From: a virus
Taxonomy: Duplodnaviria > Caudoviricetes
Strand: one strand, 5' to 3'
Virus record (IMG/VR): IMGVR_UViG_3300023055_000005
Length of the DNA: 64,000 nt
In this document: in pieces, positions 16,072 through 47,500 of the stretch
How the letters are laid out: the number at the start of each line of letters is the position of its first letter
How positions within the stretch are numbered: the stretch's first letter is position 1
Program-made: the position numbers and the translations under genes
Notes under the pieces: generated by a model
The model's database searches: none
Seen by the model: only the letters and a program-made list of their open reading frames with translations
Told to the model about the DNA's origin: nothing

Positions 16072-16072
16072 G

Positions 16073-16107
16073 GGCATAAAGGGTGAGGGGGTAAAACCCC
16101 TCATCCC
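16073..16107. terminator. GGCATA-flanked hairpin
   Basis: GGCATAAA then GGGTGAGGGG/CCCCTCATCC stem. Confidence 0.7.
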
Positions 16108-16122
16108 AAACATTTTCAGTTC

Positions 16123-16147
16123 TATATAACCTAGATGAAGTAGTACA
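16123..16147 (+). promoter_or_regulatory. early promoter candidate with extended downstream box
   Basis: TATATAACCTAGATGAAGTAGTACA; nearly identical downstream box at 30621-30646. Confidence 0.7.
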
Positions 16148-16173
16148 TCTAACCCATCGCAAGGAGGTTCACA

Positions 16174-16341
16174 ATGAAAACCATCTTCAAACTGGCCGGC
16201 TTTGCGCTGGCTACCTTTATGCTGTTTGCTGTTGGTTTCTCGGCATTCGCTGAGATGAAGGCCAACGCTCCCTCGGGTGCTTCGGTTGAATACACCGACT
16301 CCCAGTCGAGCTTTGCCAACGAGATTTCCAAAGCGTTCTAA
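16174..16341 (+). CDS. 55-aa exported peptide with signal sequence (absent from the ORF track)
   Basis: Perfect AAGGAGGT RBS; MKTIFKLAGFALATFMLFAVGFSAFA-EMKANAPSGASVEYTDSQSSFANEISKAF; AFA signal-peptidase-like site. Confidence 0.75.
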   Translation: MKTIFKLAGFALATFMLFAVGFSAFAEMKANAPSGASVEYTDSQSSFANEISKAF

Positions 16342-16355
16342 ACGGAGAAGTACGA

Positions 16356-40874: not shown

Positions 40875-43106
40875 ATGTCACGTTCACGTTCCCGCCTTCC
40901 CGTCGATCCGGAGTTTGTCGACAAAGGCTATTTTGTCCGTGGGTTGCCCGAGCGCATCCCGGATCGCTACATCCCCAATATCCAAATCCCCGGCGCCATC
41001 GAGCGCGACCTGCCGTTGATCGCAGGCGTCGTACTGCAGGAACTGCAGGCCGACTACGGTCGTCATGAGCTGCGTACGTTCCTGTACAACATGATGGCCG
41101 AGAACGAATTCGACAACAAGGACTACGACCAGCTCGTCGGTTCTGTCGCCGAAGCGTTCTTCTTCTTCTTCGAAGGCGAGCGCATGGAAGCCCCCGATGC
41201 GCTGCGCAAGGCAACCCAGGTGGTGCTGCGCTTCACCATGGCGCTGTACGTGGAGAAGTATCCCGAGCTGGACGAGTACGTCGACGGCAAGATGGATCGC
41301 GAACTGCGTGATGCCATGGACGACGGTCGTGACCTCATCGCTGACATCGAAGACTTCAACCGTGGTTCGCGCCGTGGTCGTGGTCGCGATGACCGTGATG
41401 ACCGCGGTCGTGGTCGTGGCGACGATCGTGACGATCGCCGTGGTGGTCGTAGTCGTGGTCGCGAAGATGGTGGTTACCGTGGTAATGGTAGCCGTGGTTA
41501 CGGTGGCAGCCGTCGTCGTGATGAAGAAGACGACACCGATGCAACGGCAACTCGCCGTGGCGGCATGGCTGGTGTGGTGCGTGCGTCGAGCAAGGACAAT
41601 CGCGATGACCGCCCCAGTCGTGATGAGCGTAGCAGCCGTCGTGACACCCCGCGTGAAGACCGCAGCCGCGAGTTCTCCTCCGGTGGCGTGGAAGAACGTG
41701 GTGGCAACGATCTGCATGCCGTGGAAGAAGAACTGCATGCCAGCCCGCGTGGCCACAACTACCAGAACCACGAAGCACAGCGCAAGGCCGATGCAACTCC
41801 GTCGCGCCCGATGCCGAAGCTGTTTGATCGCAGCAAGGGCACCGTGGTCTCGGCCGATACCGTCGACAAGGACGCAACCCTGCGTGCCAACATCCGTGCC
41901 GGCCGTCCCTACGACCGCGTGGACCTGGAAGACGGTTCCTTCGTCATCCCGGAAGTGCTGAGCACCTACAAGAAGACCTTCAGCCCGGAGCAGCCGTTCG
42001 CTCTGGTGTACGATCCCAACCTCTTCGTCAAGTTCCACCGGGTCTATCCCGATGGTCGTGTCGATGAAGTTGTCAAAGAGCGAAATGCCGACATGGACTA
42101 CCTGGACCTGGAAACCGACGAGAACCGCAAGAGCAAGGCGCAGCATCAGCGTCGCCAGGGTCGTGTCGACCCGCGCTTCGACCTGGTCGCCAACATGCAC
42201 AAGAAGGGCGAAAAGATGGTCGGCGTCGAGCTGGCCGCACCGAGTGGCGAAGTGACCGAAGGCAGCGAAGAAAGCACCTTCGACAACCTGGTCTTCGGTC
42301 CGGACACCGAGATCGGCGAAGTGGCTACCACCGTGCCGGCAATGTCGGTGGCTCAGGCCATTGCCATGACCGAAGTGGTGGCAGTTGAAGATGAAGGTGA
42401 AGACACTCCCAAGGAGTTCTACATCGACATCCTCACCCCGCACCTGGTGGAAGCCAACCTGATCGGTACGTTCCTGGCCATCGGCAAGGAAAAGACCGTG
42501 CAGGCTGCACTGGCCAAGTTCAGCCAGCTGCAGGGCCAGGAAGATGTGCCGGTCCGTCTGTGGCATCAGCTCAACGATGCGCTGACCGCTCGCATCAACT
42601 ACGTGCTGAAGAACTCGATGGGGCTGAGCTGGACCATCGATACCGCTGCTGACGACTTCGGCGATCTGCTGAAGGCGATGCAGGCCAAGGCAAGTGTGGG
42701 CGTGGCTGCTGCCAACCTGCTGAACTCCAAGGTCGACGAGGTGTTCAACTCGGTCATGCGTGTTCTGAAGGACGAAGAGCTGGCTCGCTTCGCTGAAGAG
42801 TACGGCAAGGCTGGTGCAGGCATGCATTGGCTGGTCTTCGCTCGTCGCCAGTCGGTGACGCTGCTGAGCTGGTCCAGTGCTGACATGGGTCCGTCGCTGG
42901 TCAACGGTGGCGTGGTGTCCGAACAGCTGTACCCGGCACTGCACGCTTCGCTGGATCGTCTGCTGCAGCGCACGGCGATCGTGGGTGGTGAGTTCTGCCA
43001 TCGCTACCTGGTCACCGAAGACAACGTGGCGTTCGATCTGCAGGTCGGCTTCTTCAACAACAGCCATTACGTGCTGACGCCGTCCAAGGTTGACATCATG
43101 GGCTAA
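40875..43106 (+). CDS. conserved core hypothetical protein with a central R/G/D-rich low-complexity region
   Basis: 743 aa; RRGRGRDDRDDRGRGRGDDRDDRRGG tract. Confidence 0.75.
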   Translation: MSRSRSRLPVDPEFVDKGYFVRGLPERIPDRYIPNIQIPGAIERDLPLIAGVVLQELQADYGRHELRTFLYNMMAENEFDNKDYDQLVGSVAEAFFFFFEGERMEAPDALRKATQVVLRFTMALYVEKYPELDEYVDGKMDRELRDAMDDGRDLIADIEDFNRGSRRGRGRDDRDDRGRGRGDDRDDRRGGRSRGREDGGYRGNGSRGYGGSRRRDEEDDTDATATRRGGMAGVVRASSKDNRDDRPSRDERSSRRDTPREDRSREFSSGGVEERGGNDLHAVEEELHASPRGHNYQNHEAQRKADATPSRPMPKLFDRSKGTVVSADTVDKDATLRANIRAGRPYDRVDLEDGSFVIPEVLSTYKKTFSPEQPFALVYDPNLFVKFHRVYPDGRVDEVVKERNADMDYLDLETDENRKSKAQHQRRQGRVDPRFDLVANMHKKGEKMVGVELAAPSGEVTEGSEESTFDNLVFGPDTEIGEVATTVPAMSVAQAIAMTEVVAVEDEGEDTPKEFYIDILTPHLVEANLIGTFLAIGKEKTVQAALAKFSQLQGQEDVPVRLWHQLNDALTARINYVLKNSMGLSWTIDTAADDFGDLLKAMQAKASVGVAAANLLNSKVDEVFNSVMRVLKDEELARFAEEYGKAGAGMHWLVFARRQSVTLLSWSSADMGPSLVNGGVVSEQLYPALHASLDRLLQRTAIVGGEFCHRYLVTEDNVAFDLQVGFFNNSHYVLTPSKVDIMG

Positions 43107-43112
43107 GGCCTG

Positions 43113-43134
43113 GCGGGGAGGGAAACTTCCCCGC
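43113..43134. terminator. GAAA-tetraloop hairpin after the 40875 gene
   Basis: GCGGGGAGG-GAAA-CTTCCCCGC; followed by an A-rich rather than T-rich tract. Confidence 0.55.
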
Positions 43135-43166
43135 TGTAAAAAGAAACAGCGATACGCAATAATGTG

Positions 43167-43350
43167 GAGCTAGAGTTCCTTTCCTAGTGCTCGAACCTCC
43201 TGACGTGTAGCCCGACCATGGGCGTTGGATTAGCGACGGTTGATCCTTCATGACTGCACGCGCCGCCTTAACCACCTTGGGGCACCGCGGTAGTCTATCC
43301 ACGTCACAACCTGCATATCCCCTGCCATCGTTTAAGGACGGTGGTGGGGG
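43167..43350 (+). ncRNA. candidate stand-alone structured non-coding RNA
   Basis: 5' hairpin, three-way junction closed by TGACGTG/CACGTCA, and a 12-bp 3' hairpin before TGCTTTTT; many G-U pairs that only work on the + strand. Confidence 0.55.
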
Positions 43351-43387
43351 AGTGCTTTTTATGCCCTTATCCCCAATGGAGTTGTCC

Positions 43388-44398
43388 GTGAATACCCCGA
43401 TGTTTTCCCTCGAAGACGATACCAACACCGTCTACGACCGCACTCCCGTGATGGCAACCATTGGTTCCCGTCTGGCCAGTTTCAACGATCGGATGGAATA
43501 CCGCAATCTGGAAACCCGTCTGGTCGTCAGCCACGAAGCAGCGCAGGAGCATGTGCCTGCTGACTTCGTTGCAATCGAATTCGAACAGTTCCCCACTGAG
43601 GATGAGACCTTCTCCATCCGGCAGGAACTGATCATGTCCGGCCTGTACATGCGTGCCCATCTCGATCCGGGTAAGCAGACCATCGAATCTACCCAGATCA
43701 CCGTCGGCATGTTGGAGGTCATGTGGACTCCTCTGTATGACAACCTGGTCGAGATCATCGAACGTATCAAGCAGCCCCTGCGGGTTCGCCGCTTCACCAT
43801 CACCAAGACCGACGAACTTGGCGAGACCACCGCTTCCTTCTTCATGTCCGCCTACAGCGTACCGCGGGCAAATCAGGACATGGTCCTTGACGAAATCGGC
43901 CTGCCGATGCGCGTCAAGCTCAACGAAGCGCTGGCCTCTGACGGATTCAACTACGCACTGGCCTACTCCAAGACGGTTGGTGAGCGTGTCTACGTGTTCA
44001 TCGAGGAAACCGATCCGGGTGCCGGTAAGGAACTGAGTACGGTTATCCTGAGCACCGATGACTACAACGACATCATCGCCAGAGCAGAAAGCGATCCGTT
44101 GATGCTCCCGGCGGCCAATCAGCTGCACATGCGTACGGAACTGTTGACGAAGATCATCGACAAGCATGTCCGCAAATTGCAGTACACCCTCGGTGGGCCG
44201 AGTGAGTATCCGGATATGTCCTACGACTCCTTCACCGGCCTGCAAATGGAACTGGAGCACAACGGCTTCATCGCCGCCGCCGCCAAGCTGCACTCCATGG
44301 GGGGTGTCGATAAGGTCATTCGTGGCAGTCAGGTTTCGCACCTGTACGTCATGCTGACCATGGCTGACTATGCCGACGAGCATAGCGCCATTCTCTAA
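43388..44398 (+). CDS. probable head-associated virion protein
   Basis: TATG site and TGGAG RBS before GTG43388; N-terminal FSLE protease-type site; next to the portal. Confidence 0.6.
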   Translation: MNTPMFSLEDDTNTVYDRTPVMATIGSRLASFNDRMEYRNLETRLVVSHEAAQEHVPADFVAIEFEQFPTEDETFSIRQELIMSGLYMRAHLDPGKQTIESTQITVGMLEVMWTPLYDNLVEIIERIKQPLRVRRFTITKTDELGETTASFFMSAYSVPRANQDMVLDEIGLPMRVKLNEALASDGFNYALAYSKTVGERVYVFIEETDPGAGKELSTVILSTDDYNDIIARAESDPLMLPAANQLHMRTELLTKIIDKHVRKLQYTLGGPSEYPDMSYDSFTGLQMELEHNGFIAAAAKLHSMGGVDKVIRGSQVSHLYVMLTMADYADEHSAIL

Positions 44399-44433
44399 GA
44401 ACACAAGTCTCGCCTGGTGACATAGGCGCTTTT

Positions 44434-44484
44434 GCCCACTCCTATCCGGGGGGTGGGCACTTTTTTGCCGTCTCTTTTTTTTTG
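44434..44484 (+). terminator. + strand terminator
   Basis: GCCCACTCC/GGGGTGGGC stem, then TTTTTT and TCTCTTTTTTTTTG. Confidence 0.8.
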
Positions 44485-44491
44485 TCTTCGC

Positions 44492-44521
44492 GGCATAAAG
44501 GGAGGCCCCGAAGGGCCTCCC
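44492..44521 (-). terminator. portal gene terminator (hairpin plus TATGCC on the - strand)
   Basis: GGGAGGCCC-CGAA-GGGCCTCCC; on the - strand identical to the 5997 hairpin. Confidence 0.75.
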
Positions 44522-44529
44522 AGTTCCTA

Positions 44530-47500
44530 TTACGGCTTTGCCTGTTCCATCGTGACAACCTTGACGGGCAGACGATGTGCACCATCGGCGTTTGCACGAG
44601 ACAGACGCTTCAGACCATCGAGGATGACCACACGTCCATCTTCCTCACGCACGCCAATCAGCGGGTAGCTGTAGTCGGCACGGGAGACCAGACGCGGAGA
44701 CATCGAGCCAGCCTGATGGAGATTGAAGCGCAAGTCCTTCACTTCAATCAGCTCCGGTTCGAGGGCGTGTGCCGAACGCAGCAGCGGGTTGAGCGGACGA
44801 CTCACAGCATCGTAGAAGTAGACGCGATCATCGGCTTCCTGATAGAGATCAGCGATGGATTCAGTGGAAGCTTCTTCGCCACCTTCCTCCGTCGCCTCAG
44901 CTGCACCAGCATCAGCAGCAGCGTCTTCTTCACCAGTGTCCTCCTGCTCTTCCTCCTGCTGCTCGTCTTCCTGACCCTCTTCAGCGCCTTCATCGGCACC
45001 TTCGTCAGCGCCAGTATCCGTATCAGTACCCAGACCATCGTCCTGAGGCATGCCGGTGTCGTCAGCCGGCGGAGCACCGCCGTCATCCGGAGGCGTTTCA
45101 TCCTGAGGTTCGCGCTTCTCCACCAGCTTCTGGATACGGTCGATGTACTTGCCGAAGACCTTGTACAGCACCTTCATGTGCTCGGCAGCGGACTCGAAGA
45201 TGTTCACCTTGCCCTCTTCGTTCTCGTCCAGCTCCATCAGCTCGAACAGCTCGGGCATGATGTTGTTGGTACGCAGGAACTGACGCAGGTAGAAGGCAGT
45301 GGTCACAGCGACCAGTCCATCAACTGCAGTGGAGATGTCGGTCTGAGAGTCACCACCAGCATCGAACATTTCCTTGCTGATGTAGGCCGGCAGAACTTCA
45401 GCCAGCGCTTCCTTGTACTCCTTGTACGCCTCGACCTGAACCTTGATCTTGGTCGTGTCCGGAGAAGGCAGTTCGCAGATGACAGCGTCGATGAACAGCT
45501 TGACCACGTTGTCGACGTTCAGTTCCTGTCCATGGGAATGGATGTACTGACGGACTTCATCGCCCAGCTTGCCCTTGTTCTCGATGATGATCTTGCGCAG
45601 ACGGTCCAGCAGGGTGCCTGAGTTGTAGGTGTACTTCTGCACGAAGTCAGTGACATGCGGGCAGAACTGTTCCTGCGTCTTCAGCACGCGCTTGGTCAGC
45701 AGCAGGTTGTTGGTCACCGCCGTGGTCGCAAACTCCGGACCCTGGGCGTTGTCCACCATCTCCACCGGGATACCCAGCGACAGCGAGTGGTTCTTGCGCA
45801 GCAGGTTGTCCAGATCCAGATCCGGCTTGTTGACCTGTGCACCGAAGTCCTCGGCGTTGACTTCCGTGTTGGGGTAGCCATCGTTACCACTGACCACCAC
45901 TTCCACACCTGCGTTCTGCAAGAAGGAGATGATGTCCAGCGGGTTGGAGGCGCCCAGCGGGTAAGCCTGCTGACGGTTCTTGGAGAACTCGCCGATGATG
46001 AACTCGACGGTATCCACCGGATCGTCGTCACGCTCATCGAGCTTGATGTTCAGCTTCGTACGACCCACCGAGTTACGCAGCGAACCCATCGTGTTGGCAA
46101 ACATCAAGATTGCACGCATGCCAGCGAGGATCTTGGTGTCTTCCAGCAGCGAACGACCGATGCCGAACTTGTTGTAGTCGATGGCGAAGTAGGTCACCAT
46201 TTCAGCCGGGACGTACACCAGACGCGTGTCCTGGTTGGCCAGGGTACGAGCCAGCATGATCCGGAAGACTTCTTCCGGGCGAGCGATGGTCACGTTGTCA
46301 CCGCATGCACCGGCACGCAGACGAGCCAGCATGGTTTGTTCGACCATGTCCGAGTAGGCACGCTGGAGCGACTCACCGTCGATCTCGTTGTTGCCCTTCA
46401 TGCCGAACGTGCCACGATGCGTCGACTGGATCAGCTGACTGATCATGTCGTTGTTCGCATTCACGTTCTGGTTGAGCTGGTTGAAGTAGTCGTCCTGGGT
46501 GGACTTGTTGACCAGGTGACCCCGTTCATCGCAGACCAGGAAGTAGCCGAGATGATCGGAGGGATCGGACGGTACGAATACCGGGATCACAGCTTCCGAC
46601 GGCGCCTCGATGACCAGCGGGTGACCCTTGGTCTTGGTCTTCAGCTGGTCACGGGTATACAGGGTCTGCACCGGCATCGAAGCGTAACGACGCTGGCTGT
46701 ACAGAGCCGACTGCACCTCCATCAAGGTGGGCTTGCCATCGGTGCCGATGGACTCGGTGGCCACCGCTACCTTGGGCAGATTCAGCAGACCCTTGCGGTT
46801 GTTGCGACGCTTGAGGATGGCATCGCTGCGATGATGAATTGCCGCCTGTGCAAGCGCGGGCATCTTCAGCATCTCCGGGTTGTCGGTAATGAGCAACTTA
46901 CCGGTCTTTTCAGATGCAGCACCGTTGAACGGCTTGAAGACCGGATCGTAGTTCTTCGGACTTGCCGAGGCCTCCATACTGAAGGACTCCATGGCAAAGC
47001 CCACGCCAGCGGCCGTAGAACCACTCTTGGGAGCGTCGGCGCTCGTACCGGCAGGTTGGCCCAGCCAACCCAGCGAGTGCTGTCCTGCGCCTTCCACGGA
47101 CGCCTTGACGGACTCCATGGACGCACGCGTCGGATTGTTGATGACGTCGTCGATCGTGGATTCAGACAGGATGATCATCGGGCGCGAACCACGGTGATAC
47201 AGGATGTCTTCCAGCAATGTCGGAAGTCGGCTGTCAATCTTATAGACTTGCGTGAAGTGGGTAGAAACCACGTCCAACAACATGCCGGAAAGCTCGCTGT
47301 CGAAGATGCCCTCCTGCACACGGTAATTCAGTTTCGAGTTGATCATGTCCTTCGGGGACAGGATCGAGCTGACCATGATCTGCATGTTCAAACGCAGATC
47401 CGGCAACAGCTGCATCAGGTTGGCGGAATCGGTGACGTTGGTCGCCGTATTGTCGCTGAGCTTGGTGAAGAACTGATCACCCGGCAGGTTCACTTCGCGA

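What the first reader, a model, noticed from the sequence alone, without database searches (positions are those of the whole stretch)
43167..43350. Candidate novel stand-alone structured RNA in the core morphogenesis region
Seen: a 280-nt gap between genes, bounded by an upstream GAAA hairpin and a downstream 12-bp hairpin (CCCCTGCCATCG/CGGTGGTGGGGG, 43319-50) followed by TGCTTTTT. Inside are a 5' hairpin (GAGC-TAG/CTA-GT-GCTC) and a Y-shaped domain. P1 is TGACGTG-TAG 43201-10 with CTA-TC-CACGTCA 43295-306. P2 is CATGGG/TTCATG extended by GGATTAGC-GACG-GTTGATCC. P3 is a ~16-bp arm ACTGC-A-CGCG..GCCTTAA-CCACC-TTGGGGC..CGCG-GTAGT. At least eight G-U pairs work only on the + strand, which argues for selection at the RNA level. 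The next gene has its own TATG and RBS beyond the terminator. It is not a tRNA and not a class I recognise. Inference: a phage ncRNA; candidate roles include a packaging or portal cofactor, an RNAP decoy, or an anti-defence RNA. Its exposed CCACC loop could pair with SD-like GGUGG sequences.
Basis: partly seen in the sequence, partly recalled or inferred. Interest (0 to 1): 0.8.

Follow-up and report, generated by a model that had tools for sequence, protein, structure and literature searches.

The report
New small folded RNA, jumbo phage
The gap holds a conserved, tightly folded non-coding RNA of about 195 bases, found only in Xoo-sp14-like giant Xanthomonas phages; it matches no catalogued RNA family, appears to have its own promoter and terminator, and its function is unknown.

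Summary
The structure is real and conserved. The + strand folds far better than shuffles (z -5.7; - strand -1.2). Five sequences from four lineages (this phage, a Logan contig, Xoo-sp14 plus a near-copy, and a 230-kb IMG/VR phage) keep the same fold. Ten or eleven base pairs changed on both sides; shuffles give 3.9 and slid controls 0-1.

The fold is a 5' hairpin abutting a four-way junction (P1, P2a, P2b, P3), then a terminator. Rfam 15 and ARAGORN find nothing, and no ORF is conserved.

More distant jumbo phages (RTH11, LucasX, the phiKZ relative KTN4) have only 57-80 nt at the syntenic site and no match, so the RNA is specific to this clade.

Upstream lies an invariant AT-rich block (43136-43149), a variable spacer of fixed length, then AATG. 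The same block precedes two other structured gaps and several genes, and is conserved in Xoo-sp14. It resembles phiKZ middle promoters. The terminator is followed by TATGCC, the phage's late-promoter-like motif, so the next gene starts afresh. No antiterminator is predicted.

Best reading: a stand-alone ncRNA gene. Transcription and function are unproven. This scan noted the same stretch once more in an overlapping window, but not on other DNA.

The parts
40875..43106 (+). Upstream gene P0001 (743 aa). It is a homologue of a phiKZ-group virion-associated protein (KTN4_159), has an RG/RGG-rich disordered stretch, and follows the nvRNAP beta-like gene.
43113..43134 (+). Hairpin 1, directly after the stop codon and with no U tract. 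It is conserved with one compensatory change in three lineages and deleted in the L004 lineage.
43136..43149 (+). Invariant AT-rich block (GTAAAAAGAAACAG), a candidate phiKZ-middle-type promoter element at about -28 to -15.
   Evidence: It is invariant in all lineages, including L004, which lacks hairpin 1. The same block precedes two other structured gaps and several genes, and is conserved at orthologous sites in Xoo-sp14.
43150..43157 (+). Spacer of variable sequence and fixed length between the AT-rich block and the start-site motif.
   Evidence: substitutions but no indels
43158..43164 (+). Invariant AATAATG. The inferred transcription start is G43164, by analogy with the phiKZ rule that +1 is the G of ATG.
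   Evidence: PMC4666361. Inferred, not measured.
43166..43200 (+). 5' hairpin closed by GGAG/CUCC, with a C/U-rich interior and loop (UUCCUUUCC). It abuts P1 with no linker.
   Evidence: The helix is extended to 6 bp in L004. The start of the 650-nt RNA at G000:169057 resembles it (suggestive only).
43201..43306 (+). Four-way-junction domain. P1 pairs 43201-07 with 43300-06 and encloses P2a, P2b and P3.
43210..43223 (+). P2a, a short hairpin with four different stem sequences in the four lineages.
43224..43249 (+). P2b, a hairpin with an invariant apex (ACGACGGUUG; loop GACG).
43253..43294 (+). P3, a long arm with compensatory changes. Its apical loop carries CCACCUU (43272-43278) in every lineage.
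43309..43317 (+). Invariant linker ACCUGCAUA. Its GCA pairs with UGC at the base of the terminator.
43313..43360 (+). Terminator: a C-rich/G-rich hairpin with + strand-only G-U pairs, followed by four or five U.
43360..43365 (+). TATGCC, the late-promoter-like motif for the next gene (+1 would be G43363). It is conserved in all lineages.
   Evidence: PMC4666361
43376..44398 (+). Downstream gene P0002, a fast-evolving ORFan. The conserved start is ATG 43376.

Best explanation
Positions 43164-43360 are a gene for a small non-coding RNA of about 195 nt, specific to Xoo-sp14-like, phiKZ-related Xanthomonas jumbo phages.

Shown:
- The RNA folds into a 5' hairpin stacked directly against a four-way junction (P1, P2a, P2b, P3), followed by a separate terminator hairpin with a U tract.
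- The fold is kept by compensatory substitutions in four lineages.
- It is not coding and matches no catalogued RNA family.

Inferred:
- It is transcribed on its own. The promoter would be an invariant AT-rich block (43136-43149), which lies 15-28 nt upstream of an AATG start site. This arrangement resembles phiKZ middle promoters.
- Transcription stops at the hairpin-U tract.
- The next gene is then started afresh from TATGCC just after the terminator, so the RNA acts in trans and is not a leader for that gene.

Most speculative:
- The rigid junction presents three invariant single-stranded elements: the C/U-rich 5' hairpin loop, the P2b apex, and CCACCUU in the P3 loop. These could bind a protein partner. 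They could instead pair with G-rich host mRNA sites, as C-rich-loop sRNAs such as Xanthomonas sX13 do.
For: Folding: the + strand has z -5.70 (0 of 200 shuffles as good) against -1.15 for the - strand. Each lineage alone gives the same architecture, with + strand z of -2.2 to -5.6.

Covariation: 96.6% of cells are paired. Ten pairs changed on both sides, against 3.9 +/- 1.4 in shuffles (0 of 500) and 0-1 in slid controls. With five sequences the count is 11 of 62 pairs.

Sequence conservation: RNA identity equals or exceeds the identity of four-fold degenerate sites in the flanking genes in most lineage pairs.

Not coding: indels break every frame.

No Rfam or tRNA match.

Promoter-like block:
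- It is invariant, with a spacer of variable sequence and fixed length, and is kept even where hairpin 1 is deleted.
- The same block and spacing stand before two other structured gaps of this genome.
- It also stands before several protein genes, and the top sites are conserved at orthologous places in Xoo-sp14.
- phiKZ middle promoters have AAanTTACc centred near -24, and transcripts start at the G of ATG (PMC4666361, PMC7598289).

Terminator: the scan detects it. It is independent of the junction, and no antiterminator forms in truncated transcripts of any lineage.

TATGCC: 51 of 86 copies lie in the 11% of the genome that is non-coding, and 62 of 86 follow a hairpin, against about 27% for control hexamers.
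Against: - No transcript ends are known. The soil metatranscriptome contigs run from the upstream ORF across the gap into the downstream ORF at flat depth on both strands. That could be DNA carry-over or read-through.
- The start-site motif is AATG, not the TATG required by phiKZ nvRNAP in vitro.
- The AT-rich block is defined from few sites. At a low score threshold its genome-wide count (14) is barely above block-shuffled genomes (5-11).
- In the L004 lineage nothing separates the upstream gene from the RNA, so co-transcription is at least possible there.
- Only four lineages exist, too few for a formal covariation test.
- Duplex predictions against the phage's own start regions are no better than reversed-sequence controls, and no top target is conserved.
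Confidence: 0.55

Rival explanations
1. The structure is a 3' untranslated element of the nvRNAP-beta/P0001 operon transcript. Hairpin 1 is read through, and the folded domain acts in cis on that mRNA (stability, localisation or export from the phage nucleus) or is cut out afterwards as a 3'UTR-derived sRNA.
For: It lies directly after the P0001 stop codon on the same strand. In the L004 lineage hairpin 1 is absent, so nothing separates gene and RNA. Hairpin 1 has no U tract. RNA-library contigs bridge gene and RNA. The 650-nt structured region at G000:169057 also lies between a gene end and a hairpin-TATGCC module.
Against: The invariant AT-rich block with its fixed-length variable spacer looks like a promoter and recurs before protein genes. 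A single hairpin would suffice to protect a 3' end. The contigs cannot show transcripts and have flat depth on both strands.
Confidence: 0.22
2. The structure is a riboswitch-like or attenuator leader. The junction senses a ligand or factor and controls read-through of the terminator into the downstream gene P0002.
For: The order of parts fits: folded multi-helix domain, terminator hairpin with U tract, then a gene. In 201phi2-1, eight of eleven sRNAs arise by premature termination in 5' UTRs (PMC11512511).
Against: In transcripts truncated before the 3' strand of the terminator, the 5' strand of the terminator stays unpaired and the junction stays intact in all four lineages. No alternative pairing links the two modules. 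A conserved TATGCC promoter-like motif lies between terminator and gene. P0002 evolves fast (55-57% amino-acid identity between the window phage and the Xoo-sp14 and L004 lineages) while the RNA is conserved. No Rfam riboswitch matched even at E = 10.
Confidence: 0.06
3. The structure is a tRNA mimic. The cloverleaf-like four-way junction with a 7-bp closing helix is recognised by tRNA-handling enzymes (RNase P, CCA-adding enzyme, anticodon nucleases) as a processing signal or decoy.
For: The topology is the same as a cloverleaf: a 7-bp P1, a 2-3-nt linker, a short first arm and two further arms.
Against: ARAGORN and the Rfam tRNA models find nothing. The middle arm ends in a 4-nt loop, not an anticodon loop. 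The arms are 10-14 bp long. Five to nine nt separate P3 from P1. No conserved CCA follows P1.
Confidence: 0.07
4. The region is not a functional RNA. It could be a DNA-level element (a protein-binding or cruciform site) or a neutral structured insertion inherited by the clade.
For: It occurs only in one narrow clade. Transcription has not been shown. Related sequences can mimic covariation.
Against: Folding is asymmetric between the strands and there are 13 G-U pairs. Compensatory changes are concentrated in stems while loops are invariant. Conservation is at or above that of silent sites.
Confidence: 0.06

Closest known systems
sRNAs mapped in the phiKZ-like jumbo phages 201phi2-1 and phiKZ by ONT-cappable-seq (PMC11512511)
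   Same: They are short, terminator-bounded non-coding transcripts in nucleus-forming jumbo phages with their own RNA polymerases. Some are intergenic and some sit just upstream of structural genes. Their functions are unknown.
   Different: There is no sequence or structure homology. The covariance model finds nothing in the phiKZ-type genome KTN4, in RTH11 or in LucasX, and the syntenic gap there is only 57-80 nt. Those sRNAs were defined by transcript ends; this one is defined by conserved structure only.
Xanthomonas sX13 and other sRNAs with C-rich apical loops (PMC3771888)
   Same: Stable stems present pyrimidine-rich apical loops (CCACCUU, UUCCUUUCC). The presumed host genus uses such loops to pair with G-rich motifs at ribosome-binding sites, without Hfq.
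   Different: sX13 has three simple stem-loops, not a four-way junction. There is no Rfam match. Complementarity to the phage's own start regions is not enriched. Host targets were not testable.
tRNA and viral tRNA-like structures
   Same: A four-way junction closed by a 7-bp helix, with short linkers after P1 and P2a.
   Different: There is no anticodon loop, no T-loop, no CCA end, and the arms are much longer. It is not detected by ARAGORN or the Rfam tRNA models.
Candidate structured RNAs mined from IMG/VR intergenic regions (PMC10690425)
   Same: It is the same kind of object: a conserved, covarying intergenic phage RNA motif of unknown function, some of which include terminators.
   Different: Those candidates are 29-151 nt long. 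Whether this motif or a part of it is in that set could not be checked, because the supplementary alignments are not held.

Membership tests
Any Rfam 15 family | Covariance-model match at or above the gathering score | tested here: not met
   There are 0 matches over the whole window. At E up to 10 on 43050-43420 only chance-level hits appear, 10-18 bits against gathering scores of 36-60.
tRNA / tRNA-like | Detected by a tRNA finder; 7-nt anticodon loop; T-loop; 3' CCA or discriminator context | tested here: not met
   ARAGORN finds 0 genes and there is no Rfam tRNA hit. The P2b loop is 4 nt. No conserved CCA follows P1. Only the four-way topology is shared.
Transcription-attenuating riboswitch or leader | Mutually exclusive antiterminator and terminator pairings that link the sensor domain to the terminator | tested here: not met
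   In truncated transcripts of all four lineages the junction stays intact and the 5' strand of the terminator stays free.
Transcription-attenuating riboswitch or leader | The regulated gene has no promoter of its own between the terminator and the start codon | tested here: not met
   A conserved TATGCC follows the terminator directly. The motif is genome-wide and enriched after hairpins. Its promoter activity is inferred from phiKZ (PMC4666361).
phi29-type packaging RNA (pRNA) | Rfam pRNA model match; two loops complementary to each other for ring formation | tested here: not met
   There is no Rfam hit. By inspection, no two conserved loops (UUCCUUUCC, GACG, CCACCUU) are complementary (alignment).
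C-rich-loop base-pairing sRNAs (sX13-like) | C-rich apical loops on stable stems | tested here: met
   CCACCUU is in the P3 loop of all lineages, and the 5' hairpin loop is C/U-rich.
C-rich-loop base-pairing sRNAs (sX13-like) | Complementary G-rich sites at the translation starts of target mRNAs | tested here: inconclusive
   Duplex energies against 226 (this phage) and 222 (Xoo-sp14) start regions are no better than for reversed controls, and no top target is conserved. Host mRNAs were not available.
phiKZ-type middle transcription unit | AT-rich ..TTAC/AAAC.. element centred near -24, with the start at the G of an ATG | tested here: inconclusive
   The block lies at -28 to -15 relative to G43164. 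It recurs and is conserved between genomes. No transcript 5' end was measured, and the start motif is AATG rather than TATG.
Jumbo-phage sRNA upstream of the phiKZ gp182 family (201phi2-1 sRNA005) | Homologous sequence and structure in phiKZ-group genomes | tested here: not met
   Model R1 has no match in KTN4, a phiKZ species member.

The most novel reading that the evidence does not exclude
This RNA is one of a set of at least three phage-encoded structured RNAs. The others are the nearly invariant four-way-junction RNA at G000:~41990-42130 and the ~650-nt RNA at G000:169057-169700. All three are driven by the same promoter type. Together they would form RNA or RNA-protein machinery specific to this branch of nucleus-forming phages, for example in controlling translation or the fate of mRNAs leaving the phage nucleus. 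They would not be ordinary antisense regulators.
Probability: 0.12. Interest if true: 0.8.

Novelty: new variant of a known kind. Interest (0 to 1): 0.5.

Why it matters
Nucleus-forming jumbo phages transcribe inside a protein shell with their own polymerases, and almost nothing is known about their non-coding RNAs. This work gives a clean, testable RNA gene in a cultivable phage-host pair (Xoo-sp14 on Xanthomonas oryzae). It comes with defined helices for compensatory mutagenesis and three invariant elements to mutate. It also yields candidate promoter motifs for this clade: an early-like TTCAAcCCTAtA, a middle-like GTAAwwwnwwAC, and a late hairpin-TATGCC. If the three structured RNAs of this phage work together, they would point to an RNA layer in jumbo-phage biology that protein-centred annotation misses. 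If not, this remains one more orphan phage RNA motif.

Tried and rejected
- **Wider homologues.** A protein-guided scan of metagenome contigs with the P0001 C-terminal alignment found no relatives. The invariant 16-mer gave 119+ metagenome stretches and 8 IMG/VR stretches, but nhmmer matched only the known relatives, so the rest are chance.
- **Bacterial genomes.** A 21-base pattern hit two Luminiphilus MAGs. Both hits lie inside what reads as the same protein-coding gene (its translation looks like yajC, not tested) and do not match the model, so they are chance.
- **Other jumbo phages.** Model R1 found only weak hits (at most 18.5 bits) in RTH11 and LucasX and none in KTN4. It found no second copy in the own genome.
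- **Coding.** The in-frame extension from ATG 43250 and the 110-aa minus-strand ORF are broken by indels or a lost start codon in relatives.
- **Expression.** One read-laying run on four soil RNA libraries gave contigs only. Depth was flat across convergent genes, so transcription and transcript ends remain unshown.
- **Riboswitch-type alternative pairing.** None was found.
- **Target prediction within the phage.** No signal above reversed controls. The best hit, a 9-bp match of the P3 loop to the ribosome-binding site of G000:203825, has no orthologue in Xoo-sp14.
- **Neighbouring gene P0002.** No Pfam or PHROG family, four homologues only, and a poor Atlas model, so it gives no clue.
- **Shared CCUGCAU.** This 7-mer follows both four-way junctions of this genome, but it is not conserved in the relatives of the second RNA, so it is taken as coincidence.
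- **Paralogy of the 5' hairpin with the start of the 650-nt RNA.** The local score reaches p of about 0.001 against shuffles but ranks only second among all gaps, and the joint consensus fold is weak. This is suggestive only.
- **The csRNA catalogue (PMC10690425).** Its supplements are not held, so overlap was not checked.
- **Structure prediction and complex prediction.** Not used, because no protein partner is indicated.

Full report
**Where the finding sits**

The window is part of a 234-kb IMG/VR phage genome with direct terminal repeats. Its only close GenBank relative is Xanthomonas phage Xoo-sp14, at about 82% DNA identity over this region.

The finding lies between two + strand genes. 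Upstream is a 743-aa protein (40875-43106). Its C-terminal half is distantly related to a virion-associated protein of phiKZ-group phages. In phiKZ-group phages the gene before it encodes a non-virion RNA polymerase subunit. Downstream is a fast-evolving ORFan.

In Xoo-sp14 the same gap carries no annotated feature.

**Is the structure real?**

Yes. The 254-nt gap folds at -113.3 kcal/mol on the + strand. That is z = -5.70 against dinucleotide shuffles, with 0 of 200 as good. The - strand gives z = -1.15. The MFE holds 13 G-U pairs. Rfam 15 gives nothing at gathering scores over the whole window and only chance-level hits at E up to 10. ARAGORN finds no tRNA or tmRNA.

**Relatives**

Searches through both flanking proteins and through DNA patterns found five distinct sequences in four lineages:
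- the window phage;
- a Logan contig (L144), whose RNA is 95% identical to the window's;
- Xoo-sp14 with a near-identical IMG/VR contig (L001, L003);
- a 230-kb IMG/VR phage (L004).

Every other 16-mer hit in metagenomes was chance. Two hits in bacterial MAGs lie inside a coding gene.

In RTH11, LucasX and the phiKZ-type phage KTN4 the syntenic gap is only 57-80 nt, and the covariance model finds nothing convincing anywhere in those genomes. The RNA is therefore an acquisition of the Xoo-sp14 clade.

**Consensus structure**

RNAalifold and each single-sequence fold agree:
- a 5' hairpin closed by GGAG/CUCC (43166-43200), which abuts P1 without a linker;
- P1 (43201-07 with 43300-06), which closes a four-way junction;
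- a short hairpin P2a (43210-23);
- P2b (43224-49), with an invariant apex;
- a long arm P3 (43253-94), whose loop carries CCACCUU in every lineage;
- an invariant linker (ACCUGCAUA) leading to a terminator hairpin (43313-55) and a U tract.

On four sequences 96.6% of cells pair. Ten pairs changed on both sides, against 3.9 +/- 1.4 in shuffles (0 of 500) and 0-1 when the partners are slid. With five sequences the count is 11 of 62 pairs. All compensatory changes lie in P1, P2a, P2b and P3. P2a has four different stems in the four lineages.

No ORF on either strand survives the indels among lineages. In most lineage pairs RNA identity equals or exceeds the identity at four-fold degenerate sites of the flanking genes.

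**Is it a leader, a 3' UTR or a gene of its own?**

Three observations argue against a leader for the downstream gene.
- The terminator is followed in all lineages by TATGCC. In this genome 51 of 86 TATGCC copies lie in the 11% that is non-coding. Sixty-two of 86 follow a hairpin, against about 27% for control hexamers. In phiKZ the late promoter is TATG, with the G as the start (PMC4666361).
- Transcripts truncated before the 3' strand of the terminator keep the junction intact and leave the 5' strand of the terminator free in all lineages. No antiterminator exists.
- In three lineages the ATG inside TATG opens only a four-codon frame. The conserved start of the gene is ATG 43376.

Several observations favour an independent gene.
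- The stretch between hairpin 1 and the RNA has an invariant block (43136-43149), a spacer that varies in sequence but not in length, and an invariant AATAATG. The block is retained in L004, where hairpin 1 has been deleted.
- The same block, with the same spacing to an ATG-type site, stands in front of two other structured non-coding stretches of this genome. These are at G000:~41962 and G000:~169031, both noted by other first readers.
- A weight matrix built on the block also finds it before protein genes. The top sites are conserved at orthologous places in Xoo-sp14.
- The arrangement resembles phiKZ middle promoters, which have AAanTTACc centred near -24 (PMC4666361, PMC7598289).
- A second motif class, TTCAAcCCTAtA, occurs seven times and is followed in five cases by TGAG about nine bases downstream. 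It looks like the early class and shares the ..TG-TG(G)AG start context in two cases.

This evidence is indirect. The block is defined from few sites. At a low threshold it is barely commoner than in block-shuffled genomes. The start motif is AATG, not TATG.

**Expression**

At least 27 soil metatranscriptome runs hold the sequence, but only as assembled contigs. In the four runs laid, contigs bridge the upstream ORF, the RNA and the downstream ORF. Depth is similar on convergent genes. This does not show a discrete RNA, and DNA carry-over cannot be excluded.

**Function**

Nothing tested here fixes it. The architecture is a rigid multi-helix junction with three invariant single-stranded elements. 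That fits a protein-binding or scaffold RNA at least as well as a base-pairing sRNA.

The pyrimidine-rich loops recall C-rich-loop sRNAs such as sX13 of Xanthomonas, which pair with G-rich sites at ribosome-binding sites (PMC3771888). However, duplex predictions against all start regions of this phage and of Xoo-sp14 are no better than reversed-sequence controls, and no top target is conserved. Host targets could not be examined.

The start of the 650-nt RNA resembles this RNA's first 40 nt: AUGUGG(G)AG, then a hairpin with a UUUCC-containing loop. The resemblance is statistically only suggestive.

**Comparison with what is known**

Jumbo phages of the phiKZ group are known to make sRNAs. Eleven were mapped in 201phi2-1, most by early termination in 5' UTRs (PMC11512511). 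Large catalogues of orphan phage RNA motifs also exist (PMC10690425). This RNA is of that general kind but is not homologous to any catalogued family, and it has its own distinct fold.

**Verdict**

I rate it a new variant of a known kind. It is solid as a conserved structured RNA (about 0.85). It is moderately likely to be a stand-alone gene (about 0.55-0.6). Its mechanism is open.

Noticed in passing
whole genome G000; in the window e.g. 43360-43365, 44492-44497 (- strand), 38004: TATGCC occurs 86 times. Fifty-one copies lie in the 11% non-coding DNA, and most come 0-3 nt after a GC-rich hairpin, often as a palindrome (GGCATA-hairpin-TATGCC). Many copies face the end of a convergent gene rather than a gene start. 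The module may therefore act as a terminator, a late promoter or both, and could drive antisense transcripts.
   Followed up: partly
G000:15991, 38604, 51820, 72964, 92358 (= window 38025), 179598, 230478: There are seven copies of TTCAAcCCTAtA, each about 13 nt after a hairpin-TATGCC module. Five are followed by TGAG about 9 nt downstream. This is a candidate early (virion RNA polymerase) promoter class for this clade.
   Followed up: partly
G000:~41962-42135 (outside the window): A second four-way-junction RNA sits behind the same AT-rich block. It is almost invariant over about 190 nt among this phage, Xoo-sp14 and the 230-kb IMG/VR phage, far more conserved than silent sites. It has no Rfam match.
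   Followed up: partly
G000:169031-169707 (outside the window): A heavily folded non-coding stretch of about 650 nt follows the gene that another reader called the prohead protease. It has the same AT-rich block and spacing, begins AUGUGGGAG plus a hairpin with a UUUCC loop like this RNA, and ends in a hairpin-TATGCC module. It is conserved in both relatives and has no Rfam match.
   Followed up: partly
G000:199347 (- strand) and Xoo-sp14 195897 (- strand): Another copy of the AT-rich block is followed by at least 40 nt identical between the two phages, inside a 194-nt gap. It may mark a further small RNA.
   Followed up: no
window 40875-43106, residues about 160-260 of the product: The upstream protein carries a long RG/RGG- and RD-rich low-complexity stretch. 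This composition is typical of RNA-binding disordered regions. Only its C-terminal half matches phiKZ-group homologues.
   Followed up: no
window 43361-43378 and relatives: In three lineages the ATG within TATG opens a four-codon frame that ends in TAATG, overlapping the conserved start codon. In this phage and in L144 a 1-nt difference puts the two ATGs in frame, so gene callers give a start five codons too early, or 42 codons too early from ATG 43250.
   Followed up: yes
window 16072-16355: This intergenic gap has a + strand folding z of about -4.5 over its first 200 nt, comparable to the finding.
   Followed up: no
window 41500-45000: The phage is present at full length of this stretch in 3 soil DNA runs and at least 27 soil metatranscriptome runs of 2018-2019, so it was abundant in that sample series.
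   Followed up: partly
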